DNA of 64,000 nt from Flaccisagitta enflata (GCA_965153355.1 OZ231126.1:7316001-7380000); one strand, 5' to 3'; positions 7,954 through 53,900 are shown, counted from the stretch's first letter. The notes: generated from the letters alone by a model not told the origin. A program made the numbers and translations.

Positions 7954-10900
7954 CTTACAAATAAATGGAACATTTTGATTAGGTACAAAATTCAATTACT
8001 TGATTGGATTTGAAATCCATATATTCGCCTTTCTTGTTACATCTTGGAATTCAGGAATTGTGTAAGCTTACCACGCATATCAATAAAAAAGACGCACTTT
8101 TGAATAGATTATTGTGAAACAAATTTCAATAAAATATATTAAAATTCTAGACTATTGGAAAACCCTTCGAAAAAACTTTAATTTGGTTTCAATTTGGTAT
8201 TTGTATCTTTTTCCTTTAGAAATGGCATTAATTTGAATGAAAACTTTGAATTTTTATTTTCACAATCCCTATGTAAAAAATGTGTTTCAGTAAAATAGAG
8301 CTTCTCTTTTAAAGGCTCTAGCTCCTCAACCGTTTGAGTTACAGACCTGGGATTGGTCTAGATTGAAATATTTTTTGAAAATCTTTGAAAATATTTCTTT
8401 TAAAAAAAATATCAATGAAAAGATTAGTGCGTCTTTTTTTTGGATACGCGTGGTACAAATAAATGTAACATTGTGATTTGATACAAAATTCAAATATCCG
8501 CTTGTCGTTTTGCATTTCGTAAAAGGGTAGCTTAACATGTTAACAATTAGTTGTCAAATTGACCCAGTGGTCAATCAAGTTTATGCATCACTGCCCTTGG
8601 TCTGGCCACCTAGACAATTACAAGCCTCGAAAGAAAGGTGGGTAGTTGAAGGTAGGAGACATACGTTTATTCATAGTCACGGGCCAGGTTTAGGAATGGA
8701 GAAGCCTAACAATAAATTCAATATACATATCATTGCATTTTGTAAAGGTACAACCTAGAAAATTGAACATTTTGATTGAAATTTTCCTCGTTTAATCAAC
8801 TACTGAGCCAGTGGGCCATATGAAATTCAATCATGCACTCCAGTACAGTGGCGTCATTCGAGTTCTCTTTCCTCATTGCTATGGCTTTTTAAAAGAAGAC
8901 TAGTACAGTATAGACTAGTATAGACAGTAAGACTAGTATAGAAATCTAATTAATTATGAACACAGTTGGCTTTACCTTTGTAAAAGCAGAAATTTGGTGA
9001 GAACATTTGTTCTCCAAACCAAACTCGAGTGAAGGTGTTTAAAAGTCGTTTATCGAAATCGTCTGTCACGCGCCCTCCATATTGCACCTAAGACAATTGG
9101 TAATTAATTGATCAGATAAAACTGTAAAACACTTCAGGCCCTCCATATTGCACCTAAGACAATTGGTAATTAATTGATCAGATAAAACTGTAAAACACTT
9201 CAGGCCCTCCATATTGCACCTAAGACAAATAACAACCATTGATGTTCCATTTAGATGAAACAGTGTTCCGTGAGACGCCCCATGATTGCTCAATACTTGC
9301 GCTAGTCTTATTATTGCTTTCCTCTCTTAACGTGCGAGGGATAGTGGACCATGAGACGCCCCATGATTGATCAATACTTGCGCTAGTCTTATTGCTTTCC
9401 TCTGTGACACCTCGTTGGATTGTTCATGTTTGTCCTTTTTCTTATCATTGCTTTCCTCTTCAAACATGTAACAAACGGTGGTCTTTGAGACGCTTCATGA
9501 TTGCTTATGTGTGTTTTTACGCTTGCCCATGTCTTACAGAGAAGTTGTTTGCTTACCTCTCCCCACATGTAACAAATGGTGGTCCATGAAACACCGCGTT
9601 TGATTGCTCTTGTTTGTTCTTGTGCTTGCCCTTTTCTTATCTTTGCTTACCTCTCCCAACATGTAACAAATGGTGGTCCAAGAGACACCTCGTTTGATTG
9701 CTCTTGCTTGTTCTTGTGCCTGCCCTTTTCTCATCTTTGCTTACCTCTCCCAACATGTAGCGAATGGTGGTCCATGAGACACCTCGTTTGATGTCCATAT
9801 CGTCCAAATGGTTTTGGACAAACTGGACGCTAGCGTTGAAATCTGATTGAAAAGAAAATAAAATGTTTATTTCATATTGACAAGGCCGGATACACGGCTA
9901 CCGTAGTCGCGTGCGGGTGGGCAGGGGCGGCGAAAAAAAGCTAAGCTTGACGAACCGACCGACCGACAGACCGACCGACCGACAGACGGACATAGTGGGT
10001 TGTAGTCGCGTCCACGCGACTAAAAAGACAAGTATGAACTATGAATTAGATTTTTGTTGTTGGGCATGAGCGAGTGGGCCAGAGAGGCCTGTTACACTAA
10101 AAACTTTTTAGGATCCACGACATTGCCCTCATGATTTATGTGATTGATAAACCAACCGTTATAATCGTCTCTCTAGACAAAGAATTATCAATTCCCGAGA
10201 GAAATATCACCTGGACCAAATCATACAATTTATGGTTACCAAATTACATGTTCATTTTGTCAACAACAACAACAACAACAACAACAACAACAACAACAAC
10301 AACAACAACAACAACAACAACAACAACAACAACAACAACAACAACAACACTAACAACAACAACAACAACAACAACAACAACAACAACAACAACAACAACA
10401 ACAACAACAACAACAACGAGAACAATAAAAACAACAACAACAACGAGAACAATAAAAACAACAAAAACAACGAGAACAATAAAAATAACAAAAAAAAAAC
10501 GAGAACAATAGAAATCACCACCACCACCTCTTGTTCCAGTTGGATGCGGTTTTAACATGAACACAAGCGTAGCAAAGTAAAAAGAGTGAGCGGTGCGAAC
10601 AAATGAACGTAGCACGTGATTGTCTCTGACTCAAGTCAAGACAAACGATTATTTACAAAAACTTAAATACGAGATAATTTTCAGTTGCGGACACGCAACT
10701 CTATAAGAGGCTTTGTCCGTCCATCGGTCCGTCGGTCCGTTGGTCCATTGGTCCGTCTGTCAGCACGAGTCGAAAAGTGGGAAAACGCACATATCCGCCC
10801 CTGCCCACCCGACCGCAACTGGTGGCCGTGTATCCGGCCTTGTTTTTCCACCTGAGCCTCCTTTGTCCTTTGCCATCATCTCATATACAGTAAAACCCCT

Positions 10901-50968: not shown

Positions 50969-53900
50969 CTGTAATAGGGGAAAGAGAGAGAGAAGGGAGG
51001 GGGGGGTTTGAGGTTAGGTATCATCATTGTAATGGTCCGAGTGAACCAACCCGTGTCAGCCTCTGAAGTGAATCTGTTTATGGGGGAAAGAGAGGGAGAA
51101 GGGAGGGGGGGGGGGTTTGAGGTTAGGTATCATCATTGTAATGGTCCGAGTGAACCAACCCGTGTCAGCCTCTGAAGTGAATCTGTAAATGGGGGTAAGA
51201 GAGGGAGGAAGCGGGATCATGGTAATTATTAGGTAATATCATAAATATATCATCATTGTTGTGGTTTGAGTGTTCTAATCCGTGTCAGCCTCTGAAGTAG
51301 GGGACGGGGAGGGGGAATGAGGAGGGGAATTCAAGGAATGGAAGGGAATATTATATATATATATTTTTATTATTGTTTATTATTATCATTAACATTATTA
51401 TTACATATTATAAGGTATCATCATTTTTATGCTTTATGGTCCCACTAAATCAAACCCGCGTCTGACAGAAATAAGGGGGGGGAAACAACAACAATAACAA
51501 CAACAACAACAACAACAACAACAACAATAACAACAGCAACAGCAACAGCAACAGCAACAACAACAACAACAACAACAACAATAACAACAACAACAACAAC
51601 AACGCACGAACCGTTGCCAACTATAACAGCCACAACGGAGACCCCAACGACAAAGTGGGGGCAGGAGGGGGGGGGGATTAAGGAGGCGACTTAGTTGCTT
51701 TACAGGAAAAGAAAAGAAATCCCCCCCTCCCCCACTCCCGGCGGGCCAAAGCGAGCTCAAGGCCCGAATCTTTTTCCCCATTAAAAAAAAAGAAAAAAAA
51801 AGAAAGAAAATATACTTTTGTCTCATGAATTCCCCAATGAACATGAAATTCCTCCAAATTTTTTTTTTCCTTTTTGTTCATTTGTTTAACTCAAATCTTT
51901 TTTTTTTTTCTTTACACGAAAATTTTCTTGGTTTGTTTTTGGTGTGGCTTAAACAAATACCATCATCACAACCATTATCACTTAATCGTCATCGTCACCG
52001 CCCTCGTTTGGGATAAACCAAACTGGTCGATGATTTTATTTCAATCGTCGTCGTCGTCGTCGTCGTCGTCGTCGTCGTCGTCCTCGTCGTCGTCGTCGTC
52101 GTCGTCGTCGTCGTCGTCATCATCATCATCATCATCATCATCATCATCATCATCATCATCATCATCATCATCATCATCATCATCATCATCATCATCATCA
52201 TCATCATCATCATAGTCATCGTCATCGTCATCGTCATCATCATCATCATCATCATCATCATCATCATCATCATCATCATCATCATCATCATCATCATCAT
52301 CAACATCATCCATCATCATCATCATCATCGTAAATAACAAACATCTTAAACTTTTCAAATAGATACACCCGCTCTGAAAGAAGAGAGGATTCAGATTTTC
52401 CCACTTAGGGTTGCACTTGTACACAAAAGCTAAACCAAACCCCCTGATTAATTGAAAACAGCGCTTATATGAATGAGAGAGAGAGAGAGAGAGAGAGAGA
52501 GAAAAAGAGGAAGACCAAAAAGAAGAAAAATCCATGTTTGAGAAATAGGGAGTAGAGGCCACAGGAGTACGGATTTTCGATAGAGGGGTGCAAGGGTCGA
52601 GTGTTACAGACGAGCTGACGGACGGACAGACTGGCCGACAGACATATACTTGAACTCCGCTCTAACAGACCCGCCAGCAACGGAATTTCGCCTAAAACTG
52701 ATGCTAATATATGGTCTCTTCGACTAGTTTTCTTTAATCTTTTAAAGACTTACCATATTGGCAAAAACAGAATTGCGCCTATAACAGATAAAACATCTTG
52801 GTCGCATGAAATACATCAGAGCGGGATTAAACTGTAGCTGGTTTATGCATCGCGCGCACGTGACCATAAAACAAAGAAAAAGTTGGCGTCAACAGAAGCA
52901 GCCTCCAATAGAAATCTGACTGACAACAACAATAACAATTTAGACATCACTCTCAAGAGAAAAGAAAATCGAGTTATTCGCGGTCGAAAGGCGGAGAAGA
53001 AGAAGAATATAAAGGGGAACCACTAGAAGAGGAATTAGGGCAAAAACCGGAGGTTCTAGACGGGGTTGGAGGCTGTTTGTGTGTAGGATGGGGGGTGAGG
53101 GTGAGGGGGAGGAGTTGGAGGCGGTTTGTGTGTGGGATGGGGTGGGTGGGGGGGGGGGGGAGTTGGAGGCGGTTTGTTTGTAGGGTGGGGGGTGGTGTGA
53201 TGGGAGAGAGGTGGTTGCTATTTGTTCGTAGGGTGGGGGTGGGGGTGAGGGGGAGGAGTTTGAGGCGGTTTGTGTGTGGGATGGGGGGTGGGGGAGAGGG
53301 GCAGGGGTTGGAGGCTGTTTTTGCGTAGGTTGGGGGGGTGAGGGTGAGGGGAAGGAGTTGGTTGCTGTTTGTGTGAGCTGGAGGGGGGTGGGTGGGCAGG
53401 GGGACAGGAGTGTCGATCGGGGTGGAGAATCTCGGAAATGTATCTTAGGAGGTAAAGGAAAATTCCGCTCAAACGAATTTCGGGGGAGTAACAAATTTTA
53501 TCCACTATAAGCGGAATTCTGTTAAAGCAAACACAAGAAAACAAGTGGAAGGACCAATTAATTTGCATTCATTCTTGGCGGATCCGCAAGAGCAGGGTTT
53601 GATAGTGTGTTGGTTGCACATTATCACAACCGAATATTTATCTTGTGCTAGTAGCTCTCAAAAAAGATTTCAGTCCATTAGAAGGTGGAAGAAATCAGGA
53701 GGCTAAGAAGATTAGGTGGAGCTAAATCTAGATAAAGGAACTTTCCTCAAACATTGAATAAATAATGGATTGAGTGAATCAGAGGTATTCATGGGTTGAT
53801 TCAGGGTCAACATATTTGAGATATGAAATGGATAAGAAAAAGAAGGATTTGGTATAATTTCTTGTTTGAGTTCATGGACGGCCCTACGGGAGTTCGCGAA

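What the first reader, a model, noticed from the sequence alone, without database searches (positions are those of the whole stretch)
7954..51470. Gene-wide splice-junction echoes: about 14 of 34 dynein exons have one boundary tandemly copied into the flanking intron
Seen: units made of the exon edge plus adjacent intron are repeated into the intron, usually with GT or AG intact, and often decay with distance. Donor side: 9270-9744, 29101-29190, 32257-32300, 34140-34647, 40230-40376, 43455-43695. Acceptor side: 7954-8760, 9088-9230, 18311-20230, 37268-37330, 39277-39500, 43292-43330, 46601-46880, 51021-51470. In every case where I read the frame, using the decoy gives a stop or frameshift. Inference: either a mutational process focused on splice junctions, or a high background tandem-duplication rate in which junction-straddling copies survive because the exon stays intact. 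Either way, splicing must select the true site among near-identical decoys, which could feed unproductive splicing, splice-site sliding and intron growth.
Basis: partly seen in the sequence, partly recalled or inferred. Interest (0 to 1): 0.85.

Follow-up and report, generated by a model that had tools for sequence, protein, structure and literature searches.

The report
Exon-edge minisatellites in a dynein gene
In one dynein gene of an unnamed marine animal, about a dozen exon-intron boundaries have been copied head-to-tail into the neighbouring intron, a known oddity ("mirage" minisatellites of lancelets) that is unusually dense here.

Summary
The minus strand carries the AAA4-to-C-terminal part of an axonemal dynein heavy chain. 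I mapped 32 exons, not 34; E2-E32 read open for 1443 aa. Of the 14 claimed intervals, 13 hold intron copies spanning an exon-intron boundary (10-60 nt of exon plus intron). One (43292-43330) is a weak exon-only echo.

GT is intact in 11 of 13 donor copies and AG in 28 of 34 acceptor copies. Using a decoy gives a stop or frameshift in 46 of 47 copies.

Junctions are echoed 13 of 64 times (20%) against 29-38% of intron positions. That test counts array length, though. Counting arrays, 9 of 12 long-unit (≥40 nt) arrays are anchored on a junction where about 1.3 are expected (P about 3e-7; 5e-3 at the most conservative).

An independent metagenome run carries one echo, so that echo is not assembly stutter. 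No RNA reads covered the exons, so splicing effects are untested.

The structure is already described: "mirages" in lancelet Adh3, globin, TnC and PGBD5 genes, and the human F7 intron-7 minisatellite. This is a new, dense example of a known kind. The cause of the exon-edge preference remains open.

The parts
7796..50968 (-). Axonemal dynein heavy chain gene, AAA4-to-C-terminal part. 32 mapped exons (E1 50968-50846 ... E32 7953-7796). Both ends of the gene lie outside the window.
   Evidence: The E23 exon peptide is 73-84% identical to proteins that sources name dynein heavy chain 5/8, axonemal. Pfam families on those hits include PF12780, PF12777, PF12781 and PF03028. E2-E32 give an open 1443-aa frame with AG/GT at every border.
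50924..51242 (-). E1 acceptor array. True acceptor at 50968. Two upstream copies: 51137-51029 (93%) and 51242-51138 (81%). Unit about 105-109 nt, 45 nt of it exon.
   Evidence: Both copies keep AG. The proximal decoy is in frame with no stop.
46586..46908 (-). E2 acceptor array. True acceptor at 46600. Three degenerate copies (78, 71, 68%), unit 46 nt, 15 nt of exon.
   Evidence: AG intact in 3 of 3.
43454..43760 (-). E3 donor array. True donor after 43696. Copies at 43675-43559 (96%) and 43597-43480 (87%). Unit 78 nt, about 58-65 nt of it exon.
   Evidence: Both decoys are identical to the true site over -6..+6 (CACCAG|gtaagc). In frame but with a stop.
43263..43321 (-). Weak echo of the first about 60 nt of exon E4 (42914-42857), lying in intron 3. 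No AG.
   Evidence: 69% over 59 nt, E=7e-4.
40224..40262 (-). E7 donor echo, 140 nt downstream of the true donor (after 40377). 25 nt of exon.
   Evidence: 79% over 39 nt, E=9e-6, GT intact.
39166..39457 (-). E9 acceptor array. True acceptor at 39196. Two copies (76, 74%), unit about 111 nt, 27-31 nt of exon.
   Evidence: AG intact in 2 of 2.
37260..37307 (-). E11 acceptor echo, 1.7 kb upstream of the true acceptor (35585). Separated from it by an (AAC)n run of about 885 nt.
   Evidence: 83% over 48 nt, AG intact.
34129..34723 (-). E12 donor array. True donor after 34648. Four copies (79, 92, 84, 84%), units 114/124 nt with a 238-nt higher-order period. Fills about three quarters of the 580-nt intron 12.
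   Evidence: GT intact in 4 of 4. All four give stops.
32207..32301 (-). E14 donor echo. 35 nt of exon plus donor plus (AAC)n, 162 nt downstream of the true donor (after 32429).
   Evidence: 97% over 95 nt. The site is identical to the true one over -6..+6.
29073..29301 (-). E17 donor duplication. True donor after 29232. One copy at 29176-29073 (94%), unit 116 nt, about 60-70 nt of it exon.
18276..20233 (-). E24 acceptor array. True acceptor at 18310. 21 copies of an 86-nt unit, 67-78% identical to the true junction and about 80-87% to each other. Makes up about 80% of the 2305-nt intron 23.
   Evidence: AG intact in 17 of 21.
9298..9792 (-). E30 donor array. True donor after 9745. Four copies (94, 77, 72, 70%), unit 94 nt, 48 nt of it exon.
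   Evidence: GT intact in 2 of 4. A contig of an independent metagenome run (X3, 9650-9773) bridges the true unit and the first copy.
9072..9228 (-). E31 acceptor array. True acceptor at 9087. 2.4 copies of a 66-nt unit at 100% identity, 16 nt of it exon. The decoy AG lies 66 nt upstream with identical upstream context.
   Evidence: In frame, but with a stop in the extension.
8414..8777 (-). E32 acceptor echoes, not adjacent to the junction: 8496-8414 (76%, AG lost) and 8777-8733 (76%, AG intact). True acceptor at 7953.
   Evidence: Window 8044-8473 is also a high-copy dispersed repeat in the reads.

Best explanation
These are 'mirage'-type minisatellites: tandem arrays whose founding unit (46-116 nt) straddled an exon-intron boundary. 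Each array is anchored on a real splice site and lays decoy copies of that site, with 15-70 nt of exon, into the intron.

Shown:
- The arrays exist at 13 of 64 junctions of one conserved dynein gene, on both donor and acceptor sides.
- The exon and the exon-contiguous site stay intact.
- The copies decay like neutral sequence.
- They supply most of the length of several introns.
- At least four of the affected introns are old, because other organisms share their positions.
- Long-unit arrays sit on exon edges about 7-10 times more often than a uniform model predicts.

Inferred:
- The arrays arise by replication slippage or unequal exchange in a genome with a very high tandem-repeat load, and grow by further duplication, often of the exon-proximal unit.
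- Splicing stays correct because the exon-contiguous site is chosen, by position or exon definition, as shown experimentally for human F7 intron 7.
- Rare use of a decoy would mostly be removed by nonsense-mediated decay.
- The cause of the exon-edge excess, whether preferential birth or preferential retention, is unresolved.
For: Junction-spanning copies: 15 of 64 junctions, 13 of them convincing. TRF finds the same arrays blind to the annotation.

The exons are intact: E2-E32 are open over 1443 aa.

Decoys: GT in 11 of 13 copies and AG in 28 of 34. 46 of 47 give a stop or frameshift. 5 of 13 donor decoys are identical to the true site over -6..+6, so position rather than site sequence must decide.

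Background: TRF covers 34.9% of intron bases against 6.6% of exon bases.

Excess by counting arrays: 9 of 12 arrays with units >=40 nt straddle a junction where 1.34 are expected (P=3e-7). With strict TRF settings it is 6 of 10 against 1.08 (P=2e-4). With only half the intron space allowed, P=4e-5 to 5e-3. For young arrays (>=88% matches) it is 4-5 against 0.16-0.21 expected. BLAST-defined families give 7 of 13.

Old introns: the introns after E3, E7, E14 and E23 are at positions shared with 2-3 metagenome dynein loci.

Not a general property of dynein genes: in 80 metagenome loci (292 HSPs, 584 edges, 267 kb) there are only 5 long-unit arrays, and 1 is on an HSP edge.

Reality of the copies: X1 contigs match 8508-9096 and 9199-9850 with 0-3 differences, and an independent metagenome contig bridges the first E30 echo.

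Precedents: lancelet 'mirages' (PMC3087553, section 16 read; PMC3902484, passage read) and the F7 IVS7 VNTR (PMC1557585, abstract and discussion read).
Against: Tests that count positions show no excess, and if anything a deficit:
- Junctions 13 of 64, against a shift mean of 21.3 (P(<=13)=0.02).
- 6 of 55 TRF loci straddle a junction, against 7.5 expected under random placement of whole arrays.

The window was selected because of this pattern, so the P-values from counting arrays carry an unknown look-elsewhere cost. They also rest on a single gene.

The founder model assumes a uniform duplication rate along present-day introns.

There is no RNA evidence. The polyA RNA run of the same organism put 0 reads on exons E30-E32, so silence of the decoys is inferred from other species.

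Independent read support is solid for one echo only (E30, first copy). The piece over the 66-nt E31 array has only 25 nt on one side of the unit joint.
Confidence: 0.78

Rival explanations
1. Pure by-product. Tandem duplications fall uniformly along the gene, those that break exons are removed, and the junction-straddling ones seen here are the chance share of a very high background. Exon edges have no preference.
For: The shift test gives P(>=obs)=0.99. Random placement of TRF loci gives 7.5 expected against 6 observed. TRF covers 35% of the introns. The window was picked for the pattern.
Against: An array includes a junction only if its unit straddled it. On that model, 9 of 12 long-unit arrays (6 of 10 with strict settings) are on junctions against 1.1-1.3 expected. 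This remains significant with half the intron space removed, and for young arrays only. Background long-unit arrays across the rest of the window predict about 0.5 straddlers.
Confidence: 0.22
2. Junction-focused mutational process. Breaks, nicks or fork stalling occur preferentially at exon boundaries, for example through chromatin or co-transcriptional splicing. New units are therefore born at the exon edge and older ones are pushed into the intron.
For: There is an excess when arrays are counted. The rate per junction is the same beside short and long introns: 8 of 38 sides against 5 of 26 (my tally). Identity falls with distance from the exon in 5 of 8 multi-copy families, as expected if the exon-proximal unit is the one that duplicates.
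Against: No mechanism was observed. E12 and E24 show no gradient. The gradient could also arise because only the true unit is under constraint. This is one gene only. The lancelet paper states that the mechanism is unclear (PMC3087553, section 16).
Confidence: 0.25
3. Selected function. Decoy units carrying splice sites and exonic enhancer sequence are retained because they help recognition of the adjacent exon, or because extra U1 sites protect repeat-rich introns from premature termination.
For: There is an excess at exon edges. AG is kept in 11 of the 13 acceptor copies outside the E24 array, where about 8 would be expected from the squared per-copy identities (my arithmetic; not significant).
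Against: Copies decay to 67-78% identity. GT or AG is lost in 8 of 47 copies. The exon parts of the copies carry stops and frameshifts. No expression data exist. The idea would need separate explanations for donor and acceptor sides.
Confidence: 0.08
4. Assembly stutter or collapsed haplotypes produced the copies.
For: The E31 array is 100% identical over 2.4 units. Short-read contigs break inside it (9097-9198 is not covered by a long piece). The best DNA holder, X1, may be the source of the assembly.
Against: Most copies are diverged (67-97%), which stutter does not produce. X1 contigs match the E30 array with no differences. A contig of an independent metagenome run, with 5 SNPs, bridges the true unit and the first E30 copy. 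Arrays sitting specifically on exon edges are not expected from assembly error.
Confidence: 0.03
5. Footprints of intron gain by tandem duplication of an AGGT-containing exon segment (Rogers model).
For: Both lancelet papers discuss mirages as a possible route to new introns (PMC3087553, section 16). Lehmann et al. report such gains in Drosophila (PMC2891723, abstract only).
Against: The units contain pre-existing intron sequence next to the exon part. The introns after E3, E7, E14 and E23 are at positions shared with other organisms. The echo is of an exon end plus its own intron, not the crosswise pattern that model predicts.
Confidence: 0.03

Closest known systems
'Mirage' minisatellites of lancelets (Adh3, globins BflGb6/BflGb9, troponin C, PGBD5)
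   Same: Minisatellite-like tandem duplications whose unit spans an intron-exon boundary. Both 5' and 3' boundaries are affected. Many but not all units keep AG/GT. Unit sizes overlap: 10-160 bp there, 46-116 nt here. The copies are imperfect, as in PGBD5. (PMC3087553, section 16; PMC3902484, passage.)
   Different: The organism here is unnamed, and the closest named relative of its LINE is only 26% identical. I therefore cannot say that it is a cephalochordate. Here 13 of 64 junctions of a single gene are affected, and the excess over a unit-length model is quantified. I found no such count in print (searches; the founding Adh3 paper, PMC117041, is not held). Normal splicing and copy-number instability were shown for lancelets and could not be tested here.
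Human F7 intron-7 37-bp VNTR with silent pseudo-5' splice sites
   Same: The first unit spans the exon-intron boundary. Downstream units carry donor sites identical to the true one. Here 5 of 13 donor decoys are identical over -6..+6. Only the exon-contiguous site can give the conserved protein.
   Different: F7 is a single locus with a donor-side array only. Here both sides are affected at many junctions. Silence of the decoys and the 5'-to-3' scanning rule were shown by 50 constructs in F7 (PMC1557585, abstract and discussion). Here they are inferred.
[quoted passage not shown]
   Same: Duplicated donor or acceptor sites compete. One group reported splicing only at the proximal copy (as summarised in the discussion of PMC1557585).
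   Different: Those are artificial constructs, and that discussion notes that another group obtained opposite results. I did not read the original papers.
Intron gain by tandem duplication of an AGGT-containing exon segment (Rogers model; Drosophila, potato RdRp and Xenopus cases)
   Same: Tandem duplication involving splice signals within a gene.
   Different: In that model a new intron is created from duplicated exon sequence. Here old introns are lengthened by copies of their own boundary. I saw those papers only as a search listing or abstract.

Membership tests
Mirage minisatellite (lancelet type) | Tandem, minisatellite-like repetition | tested here: met
   TRF arrays with periods 46, 66, 78, 86, 94, 109, 111, 114 and 116 nt, in 2.0-23 copies. 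E11acc, E32acc and E7don are single, non-adjacent copies and meet this only loosely.
Mirage minisatellite (lancelet type) | The repeat unit spans an exon-intron boundary, and either boundary can be affected | tested here: met
   15-70 nt of exon plus adjoining intron in each unit. 6 donor-side and 7 acceptor-side families.
Mirage minisatellite (lancelet type) | Many but not all units retain AG/GT | tested here: met
   GT in 11 of 13 copies and AG in 28 of 34.
Mirage minisatellite (lancelet type) | Regular splicing is not disturbed | not testable with these tools
   The polyA RNA run X19 (about 6% of it read) laid 0 reads on exons E30-E32. The metatranscriptome contigs lay only on dispersed repeats.
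Mirage minisatellite (lancelet type) | Copy-number instability between haplotypes or individuals | not tested
   Short contigs cannot count copies. Only one lay of reads was allowed.
Mirage minisatellite (lancelet type) | Host is a cephalochordate (all published cases) | tested here: inconclusive
   The organism is coded. The DNA occurs in marine metagenome runs. None of the 68 LINE homologues is named as a lancelet; the closest named one is from Ciona at 26%.
F7-IVS7-type VNTR with pseudo-5' splice sites | The first unit contains the authentic donor, and following units carry donors of identical sequence | tested here: met
   E3 (2 of 2), E30 (2 of 4) and E14 (1 of 1) are identical over -6..+6. 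E7 and E17 differ at one base.
F7-IVS7-type VNTR with pseudo-5' splice sites | Pseudo-sites are functional but silent, and the most upstream site is used | not testable with these tools
   No RNA coverage. Only the upstream site keeps the conserved frame.
Intron gain by tandem duplication (Rogers model) | The intron is new, and both its splice sites come from the two copies of a duplicated exon segment | tested here: not met
   The introns after E3, E7, E14 and E23 are at positions shared with 2-3 other dynein loci. The units include adjoining intron sequence.
Axonemal dynein heavy chain (identity of the host gene) | Homology across the AAA4, stalk, AAA5/6 and C-terminal domains | tested here: met
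   32 collinear tblastn exons against P0056 residues 15-1519 at 45-89% identity. Hits carry PF12780, PF12777, PF12781, PF03028, PF18198 and PF18199, and the names dynein heavy chain 5/8, axonemal.

The most novel reading that the evidence does not exclude
In this lineage, exon-intron boundaries would be true hot spots for the birth of long-unit minisatellites. A duplication process coupled to exon chromatin or to co-transcriptional splicing would create new boundary copies at the exon edge and push older ones inward. Mirage arrays would then be a main engine of intron growth and a standing, genome-wide supply of identical decoy splice sites.
Probability: 0.28. Interest if true: 0.72.

Novelty: new member of a known kind. 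Interest (0 to 1): 0.45.

Why it matters
Minisatellites that copy a splice junction are known from a handful of lancelet genes and from human F7. The lancelet paper itself says their origin is unclear.

A gene with 13 affected junctions, several carrying decoys identical to the true site, gives a dense natural test set for how the spliceosome chooses between identical sites on both the donor and the acceptor side.

The count of arrays made here suggests that the link to exon edges is not chance. If that holds genome-wide, it points to a boundary-linked duplication or retention mechanism and to a concrete route of intron lengthening. About three quarters or more of introns 12, 23 and 30 consist of such copies.

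For annotation, these decoys are a practical hazard, because gene predictors can pick the wrong copy.

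Tried and rejected
Whole genome. None is held for this window, so the genome-wide test could not be run.

RNA evidence. The polyA RNA run of the same organism and a metatranscriptome gave no reads or contigs on exons E30-E32. Reads lay only on an (ACCG)n dispersed repeat. Nothing can be said about decoy use.

Orthologue comparison. 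The metagenome scan returned 80 dynein loci, none from this species (best 81-89% protein identity). They served only as an outside control.

Earlier notes of this scan. There are none for this genome or for these words.

Missing exon between E1 and E2, and exons upstream of E1. No convincing match.

Masked global self-BLAST. It lost echoes that abut microsatellites (8 of 64 junctions found), so I replaced it with the window-by-window scan.

Random placement of whole TRF loci and circular shifts. I kept these as results, but I reject them as the right null, because an exon cannot lie inside an array.

Rfam and tRNA scans of the window. No hits.

Organism. The LINE search gave no close named relative.

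Papers. The founding 'mirage' paper (PMC117041) is not held. Supplementary files of the lancelet papers were not opened.

Full report
WHAT THE WINDOW IS

The window is eukaryotic and very rich in repeats. TRF lists 297 rows. A 1113-codon open frame at 1-3342 (+) is a non-LTR retrotransposon (reverse transcriptase and endonuclease families).

Dynein-like open frames lie on the minus strand. The peptide of the largest exon found 452 proteins with E<=0.001 among 473 candidates. The best are 83-84% identical. Those that carry names are called axonemal dynein heavy chain 5 or 8, and they bear the AAA8, stalk, AAA9 and C-terminal Pfam families.

tblastn with six of these proteins, followed by a scan for GT/AG pairs that keep the frame, gave 32 exons between 50968 and 7796. 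E2 to E32 join into one open frame of 1443 residues, and every border is AG/GT. One short exon between E1 and E2 is probably missing, because the frames do not join, and I could not find it. Both ends of the gene lie outside the window. No whole genome is held.

THE OBSERVATION

I took 60 nt of exon plus 60 nt of intron at each of the 64 junctions and aligned it to the junction's own flanking intron. Fifteen junctions have copies covering at least 10 nt on each side of the boundary.

- Donor side: E30 (4 copies), E17, E14, E12 (4), E7 (weak) and E3 (2).
- Acceptor side: E32 (2, not adjacent), E31 (100% identical), E24 (21 copies of an 86-nt unit), E11 (1.7 kb away, beyond an (AAC)n run), E9 (2), E2 (3) and E1 (2).
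- The fourteenth interval, 43292-43330, is only a 69%/59-nt echo of the start of exon E4 with no AG.
- Two further hits are not real echoes or are marginal. E29acc is driven by a (CT)n tract. E21acc is 68% identical with its AG lost.

The echoes are strong enough that tblastn reports 'ghost' peptides for five exons. TRF finds the arrays without any annotation.

The splice dinucleotide is intact in 11 of 13 donor copies and 28 of 34 acceptor copies. Five of the 13 donor decoys are identical to the true site from -6 to +6.

Using a decoy would give a stop or a frameshift in 46 of 47 cases. The exception is the proximal E1 decoy, which adds 105 nt in frame with no stop.

Identity to the true junction falls with distance in 5 of 8 multi-copy families.

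ARE THE COPIES REAL DNA?

The stretch 7700-17699 is held by 16 listed runs from 8 studies. These include two runs labelled with the same coded organism (0.62 and 0.41 of words) and marine metagenomes (up to 0.37).

I laid four runs on 7700-10250. Contigs of X1, which may be the assembly's own source, match 8508-9096 and 9199-9850 with 0-3 differences.

A 124-nt contig of the independent metagenome run X3 (9650-9773, 5 differences) bridges the true E30 unit and its first copy. It has 75 and 49 nt on the two sides of the joint.

Support is weaker for the exact 66-nt E31 array. The contigs break inside it, as expected for an exact repeat. An 83-nt X3 piece has only 25 nt on one side of the unit joint. 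X1 depth in that bin is about double that of its neighbours.

Most copies are diverged (67-97%), which stutter would not produce. I rate an artefact as very unlikely.

IS THERE MORE THAN THE BACKGROUND GIVES? TWO ANSWERS

I applied the same 120-nt window and the same criterion at every fifth base of the gene region.
- Junctions are echoed 13 of 64 times (20%).
- Intron positions are echoed at 37.9% (n=7757), or 28.8% where the centre is not in a microsatellite (n=6150).
- Exon interiors are echoed at 8.9% (n=705).
- Restricting copies to within 150-600 nt, or to at least 85% identity, does not change the order.
- Circular shifts of the junction set give a mean of 21.3 (sd 3.9), with P(>=13)=0.99 and P(<=13)=0.02.
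- Dropping whole TRF loci at random gives 7.5 (sd 2.2) straddlers against 6 of 55 observed.

On this view there is no enrichment. The background is very high: TRF covers 34.9% of intron bases.

(b) The flaw in that null. It lets a junction fall anywhere inside an array, in proportion to the array's length. An array grows by pushing its flanks apart, so it contains a junction only if the repeated unit itself straddled the junction. The chance of that depends on unit length u, not on array length. It is about 64(u-19) start positions out of those plus the intron-internal ones.

Counted this way:
- 9 of the 12 arrays with units of at least 40 nt straddle a junction, where 1.34 are expected (P=3e-7).
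- With TRF's stricter scoring it is 6 of 10 against 1.08 (P=2e-4). That count treats the E2 and E24 arrays as 'internal'.
- Allowing only half of the intron space still gives P=4e-5 and 5e-3.
- Using all long-unit arrays elsewhere in the window as the background rate predicts about 0.5 straddlers.
- Arrays with at least 88% matches, for which present intron lengths are the right reference, give 4-5 against 0.16-0.21 expected.
- BLAST-defined families of long duplications give 7 of 13 on a junction.
- The rate per junction is the same beside short and long introns: 8 of 38 sides against 5 of 26 (my tally).

Short-unit minisatellites and microsatellites, which make up most of the 'echoed' intron positions, cannot straddle by the 10+10-nt rule. 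They explain why test (a) looks negative.

I conclude that long-unit arrays in this gene are tied to exon edges. The caveats are that this is one gene, that the window was chosen because of the pattern, and that the model assumes a uniform rate along introns.

OUTSIDE CONTROL AND AGE OF THE INTRONS

A metagenome scan returned 80 dynein loci from other organisms. None is from this species.
- Across 292 HSPs (584 edges, 267 kb) there are 5 long-unit arrays, and one lies on an HSP edge. The density seen here is therefore a property of this genome, not of dynein genes.
- The introns after E3, E7, E14 and E23, all echo-bearing, are at positions shared with 2-3 of these loci. They are old introns that were lengthened, not new ones.

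Copies make up about three quarters or more of intron 12 (580 nt), intron 23 (2305 nt) and intron 30 (657 nt, which holds both the E30 donor array and the E31 acceptor array).

WHAT IS KNOWN

The structure has a name. [quoted passage not shown]
- They were first described in Adh3, then in two globin genes, troponin C, PGBD5 and others.
- Both boundaries can be affected.
- Many but not all units keep AG/GT.
- RT-PCR shows normal splicing.
- Copy number differs between haplotypes.
- The authors call the generating mechanism unclear.

These points come from PMC3087553 (abstract and section 16 read) and PMC3902484 (one passage read).

In humans, the 37-bp minisatellite of F7 intron 7 has its first unit across the exon 7 boundary. 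The identical downstream donors are functional but silent, because the most upstream site is selected (PMC1557585, abstract and discussion read).

Full-text searches for a genome-wide or statistical treatment of mirages found only the two lancelet papers. The founding paper is not held, and supplements were not opened, so an earlier test may exist.

I cannot tell whether the organism here is a cephalochordate. None of the 68 homologues of its LINE is named as one, and the nearest named relative is a Ciona element at 26%.

MECHANISM

Shown:
- Boundary-spanning tandem arrays sit on intact exons.
- The copies decay neutrally.
- The introns grow by these copies.
- There is an excess of such arrays at exon edges.

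Inferred:
- Origin by slippage or unequal exchange in a genome prone to tandem repeats, with further rounds often duplicating the exon-proximal unit. The 238-nt higher-order period of the E12 array shows a dimer duplication.
- Correct splicing by choice of the exon-contiguous site, as in F7.
- Removal of rare mis-spliced RNAs by nonsense-mediated decay, since 46 of 47 decoys break the frame.

I cannot say why exon edges are favoured. A boundary-linked mutational process, retention helped by the constrained 'master' unit, and a weak splicing benefit all remain possible.

VERDICT

This is a real, well-documented feature and a dense new example of a known kind (mirage or F7-type junction minisatellites). 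The added result, which needs a genome-wide check, is that the link to exon edges is stronger than a uniform duplication model allows.

Noticed in passing
window 1-3342 (+): An open 1113-codon frame running off the window start: a non-LTR retrotransposon (reverse transcriptase PF00078 and endonuclease PF03372 on its homologues). It is 83% identical to a metagenome protein. The closest named relative is a Ciona pol-like protein at 26%.
   Followed up: partly
window 8044-8473 and 9850-10021: Dispersed high-copy repeats. Summed contig depth is 1e4-1e6 in X1, against about 100 for the flanks, with joints to many other places. The only polyA-RNA reads laid on 7700-10250 (134 reads) sit on the (ACCG)n part at about 9954-9987. 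Similar (GGTC/GACC)n tracts recur at 10715-10761, 14520-14545, 21364-21427 and 36660-36680.
   Followed up: no
window 37389-38273, 12484-13041, 28214-28774: Very long intronic microsatellites: (AAC) about 293 copies, (GAA) about 186 copies and (TCTT) about 138 copies. TRF covers 35% of intron bases in this gene.
   Followed up: partly
splice sites of E14, E17, E18, E20, E22 (donors) and E25, E28, E29 (acceptors): Microsatellites begin within a few bases of many splice sites. (AAC)n, (TCAA)n, (GA)n and (GT)n runs follow donors directly. (CT)n-type runs serve as the pyrimidine tract before acceptors (flanks printed).
   Followed up: no
window 45446-46466: The largest long-unit array that is not on a junction: units of 62/123/185 nt, 84-92% matches, starting about 110 nt downstream of the E2 donor. 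It produces long spurious open frames on the minus strand.
   Followed up: no
window 58774-59010 (+): A 78-codon open frame rich in A, E and L (coiled-coil-like), in the 13 kb upstream of E1, where no dynein exon was found. Its nature is unknown.
   Followed up: no
L004:1419-1799: In a metagenome dynein locus from another organism, a 54-nt-unit array overlaps a tblastn HSP edge at 1779. It may be a mirage-like array outside this genome.
   Followed up: no
window 7700-17699 across runs: A second run labelled with the same organism holds only 0.41 of the sampled 31-letter words. An independent metagenome contig differs at 5 of 124 bases. Both suggest a highly polymorphic species.
   Followed up: no
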